A model generated the notes under the pieces. It worked only from the letters and a program-made list of their open reading frames with translations, searched no databases and was not told the DNA's origin. Both the position numbers and the translations under genes were made by a program. 64,000 bases of DNA. Origin: a virus. Lineage: Duplodnaviria > Caudoviricetes. Location of the stretch: the IMG/VR virus record IMGVR_UViG_2974704529_000001, positions 13,877 through 77,876 of that record; one strand, given 5' to 3'. This document shows positions 26,720 to 53,987 of this stretch, piece by piece; the first letter of the stretch is position 1, and each line of letters begins with the position of its first letter.

Positions 26720-28150
26720 ATGACGACGTTTTTGCAGAGCCTTACCGGCCAGCTCAACACGACCCGCACGGAGAACGGCGATAAGGCGCATAAGTCGTCG
26801 CTTGATCCGGTGGTCGATTACTTCGGTTTGGCGGGCGCTATGCGTGACCGCGCCGAGGCGAGCGCTGATCTGTTTGAGAAGGCGTTCCGCGTTGACCCGC
26901 AGGCTGCCGTGCGGACCCTGTTCTATCTGCGCGATGTGCGCGGGGGCCAGGGGGAGCGTGACGTGTTCCGCGCGGGCCTCAAGCGCCTGTTTGCCGTCGA
27001 CCCGTACACGGCGATGGCTGTTGTTGAGCACGTCCCGTTCTATGGGCGCTGGGATGACTTGTTCATCTTCGGGTCTCAGGTTCCGGCGGGTATCTCAGCG
27101 ATCATTCGGAACCAGTGGTCCGACGACGTTGACGCTTACGAGCGCGGCGAGAAGGTCTCGCTACTGGCTAAGTGGCTGCCGTCCGACAAGAGCCGGTCGA
27201 ACTTGGAGCTGGCTATCGCGGTCCGCGAAATGCTGGGTCTGACTCAGCGGGAGTACCGCCAGACGCTTAGCGCGCTTCGGGGTCGTATCGACCTGCTCGA
27301 GCACGCCATGTCGGAGGGCGTGTACGCGAACGTCGACTACGGCAAGATTCCGGCGCAGGCGCACCGTAAGCACGTTAAGGCGTTCCGGCGCAACGACGGC
27401 GAGCGGTACCAGGCGTTCCTAGACGCGGTTGACCGTGGCGAGGCCAAGGTGAACACGTCGACCCTGTATCCGTACGAGCTGTACGACATGGTTAAGGGTG
27501 GGGACGCGGCTGCCGCTAACACGCTGTGGAACAACCTGCCGGACTACACGCGCCCCGGCCAGGACGCGATCGTTCTAGCGGACGTTTCAGGCTCGATGTG
27601 GGGTCGGCCTATGTCGGTGTCTGTGTCGCTGGCTTTGTACTTCGCAGAGCGCAACACAGGGCCGTATAAGGGCTACTTCATGACGTTCGCCTCTACGCCT
27701 GAGCTGGTGCAGGTAACCGGTAAGACGTTGGAGCAGAAGCTTCACGCTATCGAGCACTCGACTGGCTGGTGTGGGTCGACCGACTTGGAAGCGGCGTTTA
27801 AGGCGATCCTGCGCGCCGGTAAGCAGTCGGGCACCGTCCCGGCGACGCTCTACGTCGTGTCGGACATGCAGTTCAATCAGGCGCTTAACCACGCTGATCT
27901 GAGCGTGTTTGAGTCGGCCCGGCTGGACTTCCAGCGGGCGGGGCTTGAGCTGCCGCATGTCGTGTTCTGGAACGTCAATGCGCGCCACGATCAGCTTCCG
28001 GCCACGATCCTTGACGGGAACGTGACGCTGGTGTCTGGCCTGGCGGCTACGACGTTCGGCATGGCTGTGGAGGGTAAGACCCCTCGTGAGCTGGTAAATG
28101 ACGTGATCAACAGCGAGCGGTACTCGCAGATCAACGTTTACGGTTCCTAA
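26720..28150 (+). CDS. Ro60-like RNA-binding protein (DUF2828/TROVE-like plus vWA domain)
   Basis: TENG...SSLDPVVDYF, RDVRGGQGER, YGRWDDL, AKWLP; MIDAS-like DVSGSM; SDMQF; FWNV. Confidence 0.85.
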   Translation: MTTFLQSLTGQLNTTRTENGDKAHKSSLDPVVDYFGLAGAMRDRAEASADLFEKAFRVDPQAAVRTLFYLRDVRGGQGERDVFRAGLKRLFAVDPYTAMAVVEHVPFYGRWDDLFIFGSQVPAGISAIIRNQWSDDVDAYERGEKVSLLAKWLPSDKSRSNLELAIAVREMLGLTQREYRQTLSALRGRIDLLEHAMSEGVYANVDYGKIPAQAHRKHVKAFRRNDGERYQAFLDAVDRGEAKVNTSTLYPYELYDMVKGGDAAAANTLWNNLPDYTRPGQDAIVLADVSGSMWGRPMSVSVSLALYFAERNTGPYKGYFMTFASTPELVQVTGKTLEQKLHAIEHSTGWCGSTDLEAAFKAILRAGKQSGTVPATLYVVSDMQFNQALNHADLSVFESARLDFQRAGLELPHVVFWNVNARHDQLPATILDGNVTLVSGLAATTFGMAVEGKTPRELVNDVINSERYSQINVYGS

Positions 28151-28157
28151 TGTTTCC

Positions 28158-28186
28158 GATACCGGGTGCCGCCCGGTATCTTTAAT
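28158..28186 (+). terminator. Hairpin after the Ro-like gene
   Basis: GATACCGGG pairs with CCCGGTATC, followed by TTT. Confidence 0.5.
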
Positions 28187-28190
28187 CTTG

Positions 28191-28242
28191 TGGACGCTAA
28201 CAGCAACTAAAACTGTTTGCGGATAACAAAGAAATGCGTCCA
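28191..28242 (+). ncRNA. Y-RNA-like element 1
   Basis: TGGACGC/GCGTCCA stem; TAACAGCAA after the 5' strand; inner TGTT/AACA hairpin. Confidence 0.7.
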
Positions 28243-28253
28243 GTTAAAACGTG

Positions 28254-28375
28254 TGGACTCCTACAGCAATTACAACGCTTCCACTGTTAATGGCGAGGTC
28301 TGGGTTCGAGTCCCAGTAGCGGCCCCGTGTCGCTGTAGCTTAAGGGCAGAGCGCGTATGCAAAAAACGGAGTCCA
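28254..28375 (+). ncRNA. Y-RNA-like element 2 (YrlA-like) enclosing a circularly permuted tRNA-Asn(GTT) fold
   Basis: TGGACTCC/GGAGTCCA stem and ACAGCAA, then anticodon arm, T arm (GGTTCGAGTCC), closed acceptor stem and D arm, in that order. Confidence 0.8.
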
Positions 28376-28386
28376 GTAAGCGGTTG

Positions 28387-28447
28387 TGGTCACTAACAGC
28401 AATCCTATGAAATCAATTTAACTGAAACTGATAATCAAATGTGACCA
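28387..28447 (+). ncRNA. Y-RNA-like element 3
   Basis: TGGTCAC/GTGACCA stem; TAACAGCAA; A/T-rich loop. Confidence 0.7.
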
Positions 28448-28465
28448 GTCTTGCCGCGCCAGATT

Positions 28466-28506
28466 AGCCCCGTATCCAGTCCTAGCCGACTGGCCGGGGC
28501 TTTTTT
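28466..28506 (+). terminator. Intrinsic terminator after the Y-like RNA array
   Basis: AGCCCCG...CCAGTC/GACTGG...CGGGGCT followed by a T run. Confidence 0.8.
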
Positions 28507-28651
28507 GTGCCCTAAGAAAGGATTTACATGCCTGGACCAATGTCCGCGCCCAACGGAAACGCGCTGATCACCTACAGCGCCGAGGCGCGCAAGAAAGCCG
28601 GTCGGACCGGCAAGACGGAGCTTGTGAAAGCCCGTAAGGGGGATAAGAAGA

Positions 28652-38352: not shown

Positions 38353-39279
38353 ATGACGACCTTATGGGCGATGCGGGGTTATCCCGGCTCTGGTAAATCG
38401 ACCAGGGCGCGTGAAATCGCTGACGAGACCGGCGCGGTTGTCGTTTGTCGTGACGACTTGCGCATGATGCTGCACGGCACGTATTTCTCGGGCAAGAAAG
38501 AGCTTGAGGAGGAGGTTACGGTTGCGGAGCGGGCGCAGGTTAGCGCGTTCCTTAAGGCCGGTATCTCCGTCGTTGTCGACGCCACGCATTTGGAGCCGTC
38601 TTACCTGCGTAAGTGGGCGAAGATGGCGAGCATGTACGGCGCAGAGTTCAAGCGCGTCGATATCGAGACTCCCGCTAGCTACTGCATCGTCGCTGACTTT
38701 AAGCGCGGCGAGGCCGGGGACCGGACTGTCGGCGCGGAGGTGATTAACCGGATGGCTAAGCGTCACCCGATTAAGAACTGGCCGAATATCCAGGCTCCTC
38801 CGACGTTCGACCCTAAGCCGGTCGAATGGATTGAGGGTCTGCGGGAGGCCATCATCGTGGATATCGACGGCACGGTGGCCCACATGACGGGCCGGTCACC
38901 CTACGACTACACGCAGGTCCATACCGACGTGGTTGACGAGAACGTGCGCTGGCTGGTCAACGTGATTGACCAGTTTGGCATCACCAACGATGTATCGGTG
39001 CTGTTCGTATCGGGCCGGGACGACTCTTGCCGTAACGAGACGGTTCGTTGGTTGTACGACAACGGCATTCCGTTCGATGAGCTGCACATGCGGCCTACCG
39101 GCGCTAAGGATGAGCACGGTAACAAGCTGCCGGATTACCTGGTCAAGTACGACCTGTTCGACCAGAACATTCGCGGTAAGTACAACGTGCGGTTTGTGTT
39201 GGACGACCGGGACCAGGTTGTGAACTTGTGGCGCTCGCTGGGCCTTAAGTGCCTGCAAGTTCAGCCGGGAGACTTCTAA
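38353..39279 (+). CDS. pnk: Polynucleotide 5'-kinase/3'-phosphatase (T4 PseT-like)
   Basis: GYPGSGKST P-loop; DIDGT HAD motif; DDRDQV. Confidence 0.92.
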   Translation: MTTLWAMRGYPGSGKSTRAREIADETGAVVVCRDDLRMMLHGTYFSGKKELEEEVTVAERAQVSAFLKAGISVVVDATHLEPSYLRKWAKMASMYGAEFKRVDIETPASYCIVADFKRGEAGDRTVGAEVINRMAKRHPIKNWPNIQAPPTFDPKPVEWIEGLREAIIVDIDGTVAHMTGRSPYDYTQVHTDVVDENVRWLVNVIDQFGITNDVSVLFVSGRDDSCRNETVRWLYDNGIPFDELHMRPTGAKDEHGNKLPDYLVKYDLFDQNIRGKYNVRFVLDDRDQVVNLWRSLGLKCLQVQPGDF

Positions 39280-42884: not shown

Positions 42885-44165
42885 GTGAGCTTTGACGCTC
42901 CGGAGAACGCTAACTACGCGGCGACAATCGTTAAGCTGCCGCAGGGCGTCCTCCTAGACGGCCTGGACAACTTGGTCGGCGTGCCCATGTTCGGGTACCA
43001 GGCGCTCACTCAGAAAGAGGGCTACGAGCTGGGCGCGCTGCGGGTGCTGTTCATGGCTGAGACTCAGCTAGACACTGAGTATGCGCGGCAGAGCAACCTG
43101 TTCCGTGAGGCCACGCTGAACCGGGACGCGAGCGCGACCGGCTACCTAGAGCCGAATGCCCGCGTTAAGGCGCTGCGGCTGCGTAAGCACCAGTCGGACG
43201 CGCTGCTGATGCCGGTGTCGTCGCTGGCCTATACCGGCTACGACGTGTCGACGCTCAAGCCGGGGGACACGTTCGACAAGCTGAACGGTCACACGATCTG
43301 CCGGAAGTACGTCCCGAAGGGTAAGAAGCAGGCCACTCAGGGCCAGCCCAAGGTTCGTAAGCAGGTTGATGAGCGGCTGTTCCCGAAGCACCTGGACACG
43401 GAACATCTGTTCCGGAACCTGCATTACTTCCGTGACGCTAAGCGCCTGGTGGTGACGCAGAAGTTGCACGGCACGAGCTGGCGCGGCGGCAATGTCCCGG
43501 TCAACCGGACTAAGGGTCGGTTTGAGCGGTTCCTGAACCGGCTGGGTGTTGTCACTCCTGACACGGAGTACAAGCACGTCTACGGCTCTCGGAACGTGGT
43601 TAAGGGCCGGTCGGAGAACAACCACTACTACAAGACCGATTTGTGGTCGAAGTTCGGCGCGAAGCTTGACGGCAAGATTCCGGAGAACTTCATCATTTAC
43701 GGCGAGCTGGTCGGGTGGGTTAGCGAGGATGAGCCGATCCAGAGGGGTTACACCTACGACCTGCCGCCGGGTGAGTGCGAGCTTTACGTGTACCGGGTAG
43801 CGACGGTGAACCCTAAGGGTGTTATCGCTGACCTGTCATGGGAAGGCGTTAAGGACTTCTGCCGGACGTTGGAACTTAAGACGGTGCCAGAGTTCGGGTA
43901 CGACACTGAGCATCTTCCGAATCAGGAGTCGGAGGAGTTGTTCATTGAGGATTACCAGGAAACCTATCTAGATCGGCGCTACGCGGACGATTACCCGACC
44001 GGTGGGTATCTGCCGCTGAGTGACCGTAAGACGGTTGACGAGGGTGTCTGCGTCCGTATCGAGGGCCAGATTCCCCACGTCTTTAAGGCTAAGTCTCCGA
44101 AGTTCCTTGAGCACGAGACTAAGCAGTTGGATAAGGGAGAGGTTGACCTTGAGTCGGTGGCTTAA
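42885..44165 (+). CDS. RNA ligase (Rnl2/DRB0094-like)
   Basis: Nucleotidyltransferase motifs KLHGT, YGELVG, DEGVCVR and FKAKS. Confidence 0.88.
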   Translation: MSFDAPENANYAATIVKLPQGVLLDGLDNLVGVPMFGYQALTQKEGYELGALRVLFMAETQLDTEYARQSNLFREATLNRDASATGYLEPNARVKALRLRKHQSDALLMPVSSLAYTGYDVSTLKPGDTFDKLNGHTICRKYVPKGKKQATQGQPKVRKQVDERLFPKHLDTEHLFRNLHYFRDAKRLVVTQKLHGTSWRGGNVPVNRTKGRFERFLNRLGVVTPDTEYKHVYGSRNVVKGRSENNHYYKTDLWSKFGAKLDGKIPENFIIYGELVGWVSEDEPIQRGYTYDLPPGECELYVYRVATVNPKGVIADLSWEGVKDFCRTLELKTVPEFGYDTEHLPNQESEELFIEDYQETYLDRRYADDYPTGGYLPLSDRKTVDEGVCVRIEGQIPHVFKAKSPKFLEHETKQLDKGEVDLESVA

Positions 44166-53645: not shown

Positions 53646-53718
53646 TCCTCCGTAGCTCAATTGGCAGAGCGCGCGACTGTTAATCGCGTGGTTGGTGGTT
53701 CGAGTCCACCCGTTGGAG
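53646..53718 (+). tRNA. tRNA-Asn(GTT)
   Basis: Cloverleaf; loop CTGTTAA. Confidence 0.88.
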
Positions 53719-53722
53719 CTTA

Positions 53723-53911: not shown

Positions 53912-53914
53912 GGG

Positions 53915-53987
53915 TGCCCCCACAAGGGATCGAACCTTGGACCCGATGATTAAAAGTCACCTGCTCTGCCAACTGAGCTATAGGGGC
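53915..53987 (-). tRNA. tRNA-Lys(TTT), opposite strand to the other tRNAs
   Basis: GCCCCTATAGCTCAGTTGGCAGAGCAGGTGACTTTTAATCATC...GGTTCGATCCC. Confidence 0.92.

What the first reader, a model, noticed from the sequence alone, without database searches (positions are those of the whole stretch)
28276..28356. Circularly permuted tRNA-Asn with an intact GUU anticodon arm inside the middle Y-like RNA
Seen, 5' to 3': anticodon arm TTCCA-CTGTTAA-TGGCG (GTT at 28286-28288), variable AGGT, T arm CTGGG-TTCGAGT-CCCAG, acceptor 3' strand TAGCGGC, CCCGT loop, acceptor 5' strand GTCGCTG, TA, and D arm GCTT-AAGGGCA-GAGC. ACGC/GCGT then rejoins the Ro-binding stem. Established: YrlA RNAs mimic tRNA with T, closed acceptor and D arms, and as I recall the Ro stem occupies the anticodon position. 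Here a full anticodon arm is kept as an extra branch, with the same 7-nt loop as the phage's own tRNA-Asn (53677-53683). Inference: a non-chargeable decoy or bait for anticodon nucleases or modification enzymes, or a permuted tRNA precursor matured by the phage Pnk and RNA ligase.
Basis: partly seen in the sequence, partly recalled or inferred. Interest (0 to 1): 0.82.

Follow-up and report, generated by a model that had tools for sequence, protein, structure and literature searches.

The report
Permuted tRNA mimic on phage Y RNA
A mycobacteriophage small RNA next to a Ro60-shaped protein gene carries a rearranged, end-sealed tRNA that still has an anticodon-type hairpin; this hairpin is a common feature of such tRNA-mimic Y RNAs, which papers call a long variable loop, and its "Asn" triplet is not conserved.

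Summary
The element is the tRNA-like module of the middle of three Y-like RNAs, just downstream of a gene whose predicted fold matches Ro60/Rsr.

The extra hairpin is not special to this phage. About half or more of the YrlA-like RNAs I sampled from phages and bacteria have a hairpin at this spot. Published work calls it the V stem-loop or long variable loop.

The two bases after the D arm pair with the two bases after the hairpin, giving a composite 5-bp anticodon stem that the Ro-binding stem leaves between tRNA positions 28 and 29.

Loops keep the anticodon-loop frame (Y32, U33, R37, A38), but the triplet drifts: GUU, GGU and GAU in sister phages, 17 triplets overall. Subclusters L1 and L3 lack the hairpin. 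Likeness to the phage's tRNA-Asn is confined to this arm.

An Asn-specific decoy or a re-ligated tRNA precursor is therefore unsupported, and both remain untested. The scan noted the same kind earlier on other DNA (e1-5725019).

The parts
26720..28150 (+). Ro60-fold protein gene (DUF2828 + DUF7788 + vWA), the presumed partner of the Y RNAs
   Evidence: Pfam hits. AlphaFold model with pLDDT 84. The top 13 PDB fold matches are all Ro60/Rsr, TM 0.55-0.61 for most. GenBank relatives are annotated 'Ro-like RNA binding protein'.
28254..28261 (+). 5' strand of the 8-bp closing (Y) stem, TGGACTCC; pairs with 28368-28375
   Evidence: Sequence. Present in every fold. The stem changes sequence but stays paired in relatives.
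28262..28273 (+). Conserved bulge TACAGCAA, shared by all three Y units, followed by TTAC, the YUAY motif of YrlA RNAs
   Evidence: Chen 2014 says YUAY begins the 'V loop'.
28275..28278 (+). ACGC. This is a lineage-specific alternative that competes with the composite stem.
   Evidence: 4 bp in the window and L031, 3 bp in other L2 phages, fails in CELFI and the L4 phages. Nearest-neighbour energy favours it in this one sequence.
28281..28293 (+). Distal anticodon-type stem-loop: CCA / loop CTGTTAA / TGG (tRNA positions 29-41)
   Evidence: Three pairs, 100% paired in 20 sequences, all three with compensatory changes. Loop frame Y32 U33 R37 A38.
28294..28295 (+). CG, tRNA positions 42-43; pairs with 28354-28355
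   Evidence: 97.5% paired across 20 sequences. The pairs seen are CG, GC, AU and GU at one position and GC, AU, CG and UA at the other. 25 of 26 curated cases pair, against a shuffle mean of 8.7.
28296..28299 (+). Variable loop AGGT. Its last base (position 48) is the Levitt partner of A15.
   Evidence: 15:48 covaries: G:C 22, A:U 18.
28300..28316 (+). T arm CTGGG-TTCGAGT-CCCAG
28317..28335 (+). Sealed acceptor stem: 7 bp closed by loop CCCGT
   Evidence: A 7-bp stem is what Chen 2014 link to RNase P cleavage of M. smegmatis YrlA.
28336..28353 (+). U8 A9, D arm GCTT-AAGGGCA-GAGC, and G26
28354..28355 (+). CG, tRNA positions 27-28. This is the proximal part of the composite anticodon stem.
28356..28375 (+). 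3' linker TATGCAAAAAAC and the 3' strand of the Y stem, GGAGTCCA
28191..28242 (+). Sibling Y-like RNA 1 (no tRNA module)
28387..28447 (+). Sibling Y-like RNA 3 (no tRNA module)
28467..28506 (+). GC-rich hairpin followed by a T run, which closes the RNA array
   Evidence: Read from the sequence. The consensus scan missed it, probably because of its long loop.
53646..53719 (+). The phage's true tRNA-Asn(GTT), used for comparison

Best explanation
The stretch is the effector (tRNA-like) module of a YrlA-class Y RNA. This RNA is the middle of three small RNAs transcribed downstream of a phage Ro60-fold protein gene.

The module is a complete tRNA shape in permuted order:
- the acceptor end is sealed by a loop;
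- the T arm, the D arm and the 15:48 tertiary pair are kept;
- an anticodon-type stem-loop is kept as well.

The anticodon stem is composite. Two pairs join the bases that follow the D arm (28354-55) to the bases that follow the hairpin (28294-95). Three more pairs form within the hairpin. The Ro-binding stem leaves between tRNA positions 28 and 29.

This hairpin is the feature published as the 'V stem-loop' or 'long variable loop' of YrlA RNAs. It is widespread, and its triplet is free to drift, so 'Asn' is a label and not a function.

Inferred, not shown here: the RNA binds the Ro-like ring through its closing stem and the ACAGCAA bulge, and presents the tRNA shape to one or more tRNA-binding host or phage proteins. 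In M. smegmatis its 7-bp acceptor stem may be opened by RNase P and given a CCA tail, as reported for the host's own YrlA.
For: Shown here:
- All parts are present, and the re-permuted sequence is called a tRNA.
- There is a weak full-length YrlA match.
- The neighbouring protein folds like Ro60/Rsr.
- The composite fold is 99.7% paired on 20 sequences, with 0 of 500 shuffles as high and slid controls at 30-45%.
- The composite pairs form in 25 of 26 curated cases with 7 different dinucleotide combinations, against a shuffle mean of 8.7 and a maximum of 16.
- The hairpin is followed by a normal 4-5 nt variable loop whose last base covaries with D-loop position 15. The variable region is therefore already accounted for without the hairpin.
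- The loop frame is Y32 in 20 of 22, U33 in 21 of 22, R37 in 21 of 22 and A38 in 20 of 22, with 17 different triplets.
- The hairpin occurs in YrlA-like RNAs of Mycobacteriales, Lachnospiraceae and many uncultured phages.
- Close relatives carry GGU, GAU or 8-nt loops, and L1, L3 and Douge have the plain YrlA layout.

From papers:
- Long variable loops, and the dimeric-tRNA origin model (10.1101/312249).
Against: - Rfam's YrlA score is far below its gathering score. The sampled actinobacterial YrlA-like matches also fall below it (35-49 bits).
- The Ro-binding motif (ACAGCAA bulge) differs from the published GNCGAAN0-1G.
- The partner protein is Pfam DUF2828 and not TROVE. It shows no sequence-level hit to solved Ro60 structures.
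The unconstrained minimum-energy fold breaks the D arm.
- The 26 curated cases were parsed by me and are not phylogenetically independent; 12 of them share CG/CG.
- No expression, binding or modification data could be obtained.
Confidence: 0.7

Rival explanations
1. Published layout: the closing stem is the anticodon stem, and the hairpin is a class II-type long variable arm that sticks out of the L shape. It is not an anticodon arm.
For: Around the junction the helices run D, Y stem, hairpin, T, acceptor. This matches D, anticodon, variable, T, acceptor of class II tRNAs. The S. Typhimurium YrlA crystal structure puts the Ro-directed stem in the anticodon position (10.1101/312249). Only one base (G26) separates the D stem from the next helix in both readings.
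Against: A full class I-type variable loop of 4-5 nt, with the Levitt partner at its end, already follows the hairpin. The hairpin's 3' strand runs without a break into the two covarying pairs, which favours stacking there. The loops have the U33/R37 frame, which variable arms lack. S. Typhimurium YrlA has no hairpin, so its structure does not settle the question.
Confidence: 0.15
2. The hairpin is a working anticodon-loop mimic. It would be a decoy or sensor for host anticodon nucleases, or a handle or sponge for anticodon-loop enzymes such as the t6A37 machinery.
For: The anticodon-loop frame is conserved while the stem sequence changes. All four cluster L loop types end in U-A-A, which from memory are the t6A determinants U36, A37 and A38. 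The phage also encodes Pnkp and an RNA ligase and 11 tRNAs, the T4-style answer to anticodon nucleases.
Against: The triplet varies between near-identical phages, two lineages have 8-nt loops, and L1 and L3 phages with the same Ro-like gene, Pnkp and ligase manage without the hairpin. No nuclease, modification or cleavage data exist. The frame could be kept simply because it makes a stable 7-nt U-turn loop.
Confidence: 0.15
3. It is a permuted tRNA precursor that phage Pnkp and RNA ligase turn into a working tRNA-Asn.
For: All cloverleaf parts are present and re-permute to an ARAGORN-accepted tRNA-Asn. The phage encodes Pnkp and an RNA ligase.
Against: - The phage already has a canonical tRNA-Asn.
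- Sister phages would produce Thr- or Ile-reading tRNAs, or tRNAs with 8-nt loops, from the same gene.
- The body is no closer to tRNA-Asn than to other tRNAs.
- Acceptor stems of 12 bp in L4 phages are incompatible with a tRNA.
- The discriminator position is C, whereas the true tRNA-Asn has G.
- The RNA sits in a Y RNA frame shared with two non-tRNA siblings.
Confidence: 0.03
4. [quoted passage not shown] It would be aminoacylated or would enter the ribosome.
For: M. smegmatis YrlA is cut by RNase P and gains CCA in vivo, which the authors tie to its 7-bp acceptor stem (PMC4201824). This RNA has a 7-bp stem, and the loop begins CCC.
Against: The acceptor length is not conserved (5-12 bp). 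No charging data exist for any YrlA. The triplet drifts.
Confidence: 0.05

Closest known systems
YrlA (Y RNA-like A; Rfam RF02553; Chen et al. 2014, PMC4201824; structure in Wang et al. 2018, 10.1101/312249)
   Same: It lies next to a Ro60-fold gene. The 5' and 3' ends form a closing stem. The acceptor stem is sealed. The T and D arms are nearly invariant, with a covarying 15:48 pair. A YUAY motif precedes a stem-loop upstream of the T arm, the published 'V' or long variable loop. Several Y RNAs sit in a row.
   Different: The partner protein is Pfam DUF2828/DUF7788 and not TROVE. The presumed Ro-binding element is an ACAGCAA bulge and not GNCGAAN0-1G. The Rfam score is 23 bits against a gathering score of 69. 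The published model treats the hairpin as a variable arm, whereas covariation here fits a composite anticodon stem-loop.
Tandem (dimeric) tRNA transcripts, proposed as the ancestors of YrlA (Sim and Wolin 2018, as quoted in 10.1101/312249)
   Same: The layout equals positions 29-76 of one tRNA copy, a short spacer, and positions 1-28 of the next copy. Streptomyces genomes carry two identical tRNA-Asn(GTT) genes 5 nt apart, which the YrlA model also picks up.
   Different: There are no free ends, the element is embedded in a Y stem, and the body sequence is not specifically Asn-like.
Circularly permuted tRNA genes of red algae and some archaea (recalled from memory, not checked here)
   Same: The 3' half is encoded before the 5' half, and the acceptor strands are joined by a short linker.
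   Different: Those genes are matured through a bulge-helix-bulge motif and a circular intermediate by the splicing endonuclease, which bacteria lack, and they yield working tRNAs. No such motif is evident here, and the triplet is not conserved.
Phage T4 Pnkp/Rnl1 tRNA repair and phage tRNAs that counter anticodon nucleases (recalled from memory; T4 pathway also cited in PMC13148394)
   Same: The genome context includes Pnkp, an RNA ligase and a tRNA cluster.
   Different: Nothing here links the Y RNA hairpin to cleavage or repair.

Membership tests
YrlA-class Y RNA | Encoded next to a Ro60/Rsr ortholog | tested here: met
   The RNA starts about 100 nt after a gene whose model matches Ro60/Rsr as its top 13 PDB fold hits. 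This holds by fold only: Pfam gives DUF2828/DUF7788/vWA, and phmmer against PDB sequences finds nothing.
YrlA-class Y RNA | tRNA-like T and D arms with the conserved tertiary partners, including a covarying Levitt pair 15:48 | tested here: met
   T loop TTCGAGT, D loop AAGGGCA, and A15:U48 in the window. Across the sample, G:C occurs 22 times and A:U 18 times. All T and D stem cells pair.
YrlA-class Y RNA | Acceptor stem closed by a loop, with order T arm, acceptor, D arm | tested here: met
   7 bp plus loop CCCGT. The outer acceptor pairs covary.
YrlA-class Y RNA | Closing stem of 5' and 3' ends carrying the Ro-binding motif GNCGAAN0-1G | tested here: not met
   The closing stem is present (8 bp), but the conserved element is TACAGCAA and not GNCGAAN0-1G. 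Some sampled actinobacterial YrlA-like RNAs do show GTCGAAG.
YrlA-class Y RNA | Score at or above the Rfam RF02553 gathering score | tested here: not met
   23.1 bits against 69. The best matches found in actinobacterial genomes also reach only 35-49 bits, so the cut-off excludes much of the family.
YrlA-class Y RNA | Bound by the Ro protein; modified by TruB and DusA | not testable with these tools
   This needs immunoprecipitation and modification mapping.
Functional tRNA-Asn | Free 5' end and 3' CCA end; contiguous cloverleaf; conserved GUU | tested here: not met
   ARAGORN and the Rfam tRNA model do not call it in its native order (14 bits). The acceptor is sealed. GUU is replaced by GGU or GAU in relatives.
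Permuted tRNA gene matured by splicing-type processing | Bulge-helix-bulge motif at the junction, a circular intermediate, and a mature tRNA product | not tested
   No read data were available. I did not run a formal motif search; none is evident by eye around 28275-80 and 28353-60.
Class II tRNA-type variable arm | The stem-loop replaces the short variable loop, with only 1-3 nt before the T stem | tested here: not met
   The hairpin plus two bases is followed by a 4-5 nt loop of class I type in all parsed cases.

The most novel reading that the evidence does not exclude
The 'long variable loop' of many YrlA RNAs, this phage's included, is a true anticodon stem-loop completed by two pairs from the D-arm side. 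These Y RNAs would then be whole, permuted tRNAs. Their anticodon loops would be read by cellular or phage factors: loop-modifying enzymes, anticodon nucleases or, after RNase P opening and CCA addition, the translation apparatus. Ro-type particles would in that case display a full tRNA bait, not just a tRNA elbow.
Probability: 0.2. Interest if true: 0.7.

Novelty: new variant of a known kind. Interest (0 to 1): 0.42.

Why it matters
For this phage the result is mostly deflating. The "tRNA-Asn decoy" is an ordinary feature of tRNA-mimic Y RNAs, and its triplet is not under selection.

Two points carry some weight.

First, cluster L mycobacteriophages pair a Ro60-fold protein of the DUF2828 type with an array of Y-like RNAs. 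These RNAs are unannotated, or misannotated as tRNA-Asn or tRNA-Thr, in GenBank.

Second, the comparative data suggest that the published "variable arm" of YrlA RNAs is better read as the distal part of an anticodon arm. If that holds, it fits the idea that YrlA arose from tandem tRNAs. It also widens the list of candidate effector proteins from those that read the tRNA elbow to those that read the anticodon loop. That question is still open for every bacterial Y RNA of this class.

Tried and rejected
- Rfam at gathering scores finds only the 11 true tRNAs.
- ARAGORN finds no tRNA at the site in the window or in Gardann, Zakai or Wilder. The GenBank tRNA-Asn and tRNA-Thr features there cover the equivalent of window 28253-28323 and are misreadings of the Y RNA.
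- Single-sequence folding is uninformative (z -0.84).
- Descent specifically from tRNA-Asn is rejected as unsupported. The 15 of 17 identity is confined to the anticodon arm, the rest of the body ties with or trails other tRNAs, and the 7-mer is at chance frequency.
- phmmer of the protein against PDB sequences found nothing. The fold search was needed to show the Ro60 likeness.
- I tried to fetch M. smegmatis YrlA with the primer printed in Chen 2014, but only 12 genomes were searched and none matched. That primer (CACTTCTAATGGAATGGTCGC) nevertheless shows the same hairpin type, with loop CTTCTAA. I treat it as a lead only.
- Many hits of the pattern scans are true tandem tRNAs, which I removed by requiring a self-complementary acceptor hairpin.

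Full report
**What is there.** The window is from a cluster L (subcluster L2, Faithunavirus-like) mycobacteriophage. The nearest GenBank relatives of the 28150-28520 stretch are Archie and Bazzle at 93.8% identity. The record is a 77.9-kb virus contig.

A 476-aa gene ends at 28150. It is followed by three small units, each with an 8-bp closing stem and a shared ACAGCAA bulge, and then by a hairpin with a T run. The finding concerns the middle unit, 28254-28375.

The phage's own tRNA-Asn has the same 7-nt loop.

**Is it a permuted tRNA?** Yes. When the pieces are put in tRNA order, ARAGORN calls a 74-nt tRNA-Asn(gtt). In native order no tRNA finder accepts it. Rfam's YrlA model gives a weak full-length match (23.1 bits, E 0.013) and treats the hairpin as a 16-nt insertion.

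**The neighbouring protein.**
- It carries Pfam DUF2828, DUF7788 and weak vWA matches.
- It has no sequence-level match to solved structures.
- An AlphaFold model built on 13 homologues (pLDDT 84) has Ro60/Rsr as its 13 best PDB fold matches, over the full length (TM 0.55-0.61 for most).

The RNA therefore sits where a Y RNA should.

**Relatives within cluster L**.
- L2 phages carry loop CTGTTAA or CTGGTAA. The two differ by one base and occur in near-identical phages. Annotators of Gardann and Wilder called the site tRNA-Asn, and those of Zakai called it tRNA-Thr.
- Crossroads and IMG/VR locus L035 have 8-nt loops.
- CELFI and the L4 phages (Chaser, DyoEdafos, Bromden) have stem TCC/GGA with loop ATGATAA.
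- L1 (Wyatt2, DirkDirk), L3 (Kingsolomon, Lolly9, Lumos, Whirlwind, DuncansLeg) and Douge have no hairpin. There the strand after the D arm pairs directly with the strand before the variable loop, and this pairing covaries (ACCGG/TTGGT against ACTGC/GCGGT). That is the plain YrlA layout.

**Wider survey.** I looked for closed-acceptor tRNA mimics in three ways:
- a T-loop-to-D-arm pattern in IMG/VR;
- the same pattern in GTDB genomes;
- the Rfam YrlA model in 151 Mycobacteriales genomes and 5 others.

After true tandem tRNAs were removed, roughly half or more of the YrlA-like RNAs have a hairpin directly 5' of a normal 4-5 nt variable loop. The actinobacterial consensus reads TTAC-TT-CCA-CU-NNN-RA-TGG-NN, which is the window's own pattern. 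TTAC is the YUAY motif that Chen et al. say begins the 'V loop'. [quoted passage not shown] Wang et al. call it a long variable loop like that of class II tRNAs, and state that S. Typhimurium YrlA lacks the anticodon loop (10.1101/312249). The extra branch is thus published, under another name.

**A better fold.** In nearly every hairpin-bearing case, the two bases after position 26 are complementary to the two bases between the hairpin and the variable loop:
- CG/CG in the window and many others;
- CU/AG, CC/GG, GC/GC, CA/UG, AC/GU and UC/GA elsewhere.

This holds in 25 of 26 curated cases, against a shuffle mean of 8.7 and a maximum of 16.

On a MAFFT alignment of 20 sequences, the composite fold pairs 99.7% of cells. 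The two composite pairs and all three hairpin pairs show changes on both sides. None of 500 shuffles reaches these values, and slid controls pair 30-45%.

Its two outer hairpin pairs form in 10 of 14 and 4 of 15 rows. ACGC/GCGT pairs in 63% of the cells, in the few rows (4-7) that have letters there.

In the window, the anticodon stem is therefore C28354-G28295 and G28355-C28294, then C28281-G28293, C28282-G28292 and A28283-T28291. That is five Watson-Crick pairs with no mismatch, and the closing stem leaves between positions 28 and 29. Because the hairpin's 3' strand runs straight into the composite pairs, stacking into one arm is the natural expectation. This last step is inference.

Caveats:
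- For this single sequence, nearest-neighbour energies prefer ACGC/GCGT (-34.4 against -30.7 kcal/mol), so the two may alternate in this lineage.
- My curated set is not phylogenetically independent.

**Is the loop an anticodon loop?** In 22 seven-nt loops, position 32 is a pyrimidine in 20, position 33 is U in 21, position 37 is a purine in 21, and position 38 is A in 20. Positions 34-36 show 17 different triplets. That is the generic anticodon-loop frame with no fixed identity. The 15:48 pair covaries as in tRNA (G:C 22, A:U 18).

**Is it tRNA-Asn?** Only nominally. The re-permuted sequence is closest to the phage's tRNA-Asn (56 of 70, against 44-51 for the other ten tRNAs). All of that excess lies in the anticodon arm (15 of 17, with the two differences being a flipped 30-40 pair). 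The 5' part ties with tRNA-Pro and tRNA-His, and the 3' part trails tRNA-Thr and tRNA-Trp. The 7-mer itself occurs at chance frequency.

**Function.** Nothing here tests function. From the literature, YrlA RNAs bind Rsr, carry tRNA modifications, and have an unidentified effector thought to read the tRNA elbow. M. smegmatis YrlA, which has a 7-bp acceptor stem, is cut by RNase P and gains CCA in vivo. The window RNA also has a 7-bp stem and a loop that begins CCC, so the same processing is plausible in the same host. Acceptor length, however, ranges from 5 to 12 bp in relatives.

The phage does encode Pnkp (38353-39279) and an RNA ligase (42885-44165). L1 and L3 phages, though, have the same genes without the hairpin. 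In LeBron (L1), the Ro-like protein, Pnkp and ligase are each growth-inhibitory when overexpressed in M. smegmatis, and that paper mentions no Y RNAs (PMC13148394).

**Verdict.** The structural reading is right in spirit but needs redrawing. The claim that this is special, or Asn-specific, is not supported.

The element is a YrlA-type tRNA mimic attached to a divergent Ro-binding frame and a DUF2828-type Ro60-fold partner. The scan noted the same design earlier on other DNA (e1-5725019).

That evidence still needs a tree-aware test and structure probing.

Noticed in passing
L001 1604-1674 (Gardann), L002 404-474 (Zakai), L003 404-474 (Wilder); equivalent to window 28253-28323: GenBank records annotate this stretch as tRNA-Asn or tRNA-Thr. 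The feature runs from the Y stem to the acceptor 3' strand, and ARAGORN finds no tRNA there. It looks like a misannotation of the Y RNA.
   Followed up: yes
L015 about 505-560, L016 402-453, L026 about 2165-2220, L037 2385-2443: Sibling Y-like RNAs without a tRNA module end in apical hairpins with 5-bp stems (TTTCA/TGAAA, TTCTT/AAGAA) and 7-nt loops of anticodon-loop form (CTGCTAA, ATGGTAA, CTTCTAA). The hairpin type may be a shared module of this Y RNA family and not a tRNA relic.
   Followed up: partly
L179 2430-2560, also L184, L206 and L301 (Streptomyces): Two identical tRNA-Asn(GTT) genes lie 5 nt apart. The acceptor 3' strand of copy 1 is complementary to the 5' strand of copy 2, so the YrlA model and my filter pick them up. 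This is a living example of the dimeric-tRNA state proposed as the ancestor of YrlA.
   Followed up: partly
L051 2345-2900 and L052 1288-1560 (low-GC metagenomic phages, Ro-like protein 46-55% identical): These hold arrays of four or five Y-like units with TAGAC/GTCTA stems and a CAGCAA bulge. In L051 at least three of the units carry tRNA-like modules, one of them with a TTCCA...TGGAG hairpin.
   Followed up: no
L037-L043, L047, L050, L053 (IMG/VR contigs, Ro-like protein about 60% identical): Three Y-like units follow the Ro-like gene, but none has a tRNA-like module. The tRNA module is therefore optional in this RNA-protein pairing.
   Followed up: no
window 28158-28180: A 10-bp GC-rich hairpin followed by TTTAAT sits 8 nt after the Ro-like stop codon and just before the first Y unit. 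It is conserved in relatives and may be a processing site or a weak terminator.
   Followed up: no
window 53913-53987 (- strand): The only leftward tRNA is tRNA-Lys(TTT). It is the gene that Hatfull and colleagues showed to be needed for tRNA-dependent lysogeny of cluster L phages (PMC10865867).
   Followed up: no
window 38353-39279 and 42885-44165: There is a T4-type polynucleotide kinase-phosphatase (AAA_33 + HAD_PNKP) and an RNA ligase (PF09414), that is, an RNA repair pair in the same genome as the Ro-like/Y RNA locus.
   Followed up: partly
L013 about 405-425 (DuncansLeg): Its T arm carries a 5-nt internal duplication (GGGTTGGGTTCAAATCC) compared with Whirlwind, which should disrupt the T stem.
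   Followed up: no
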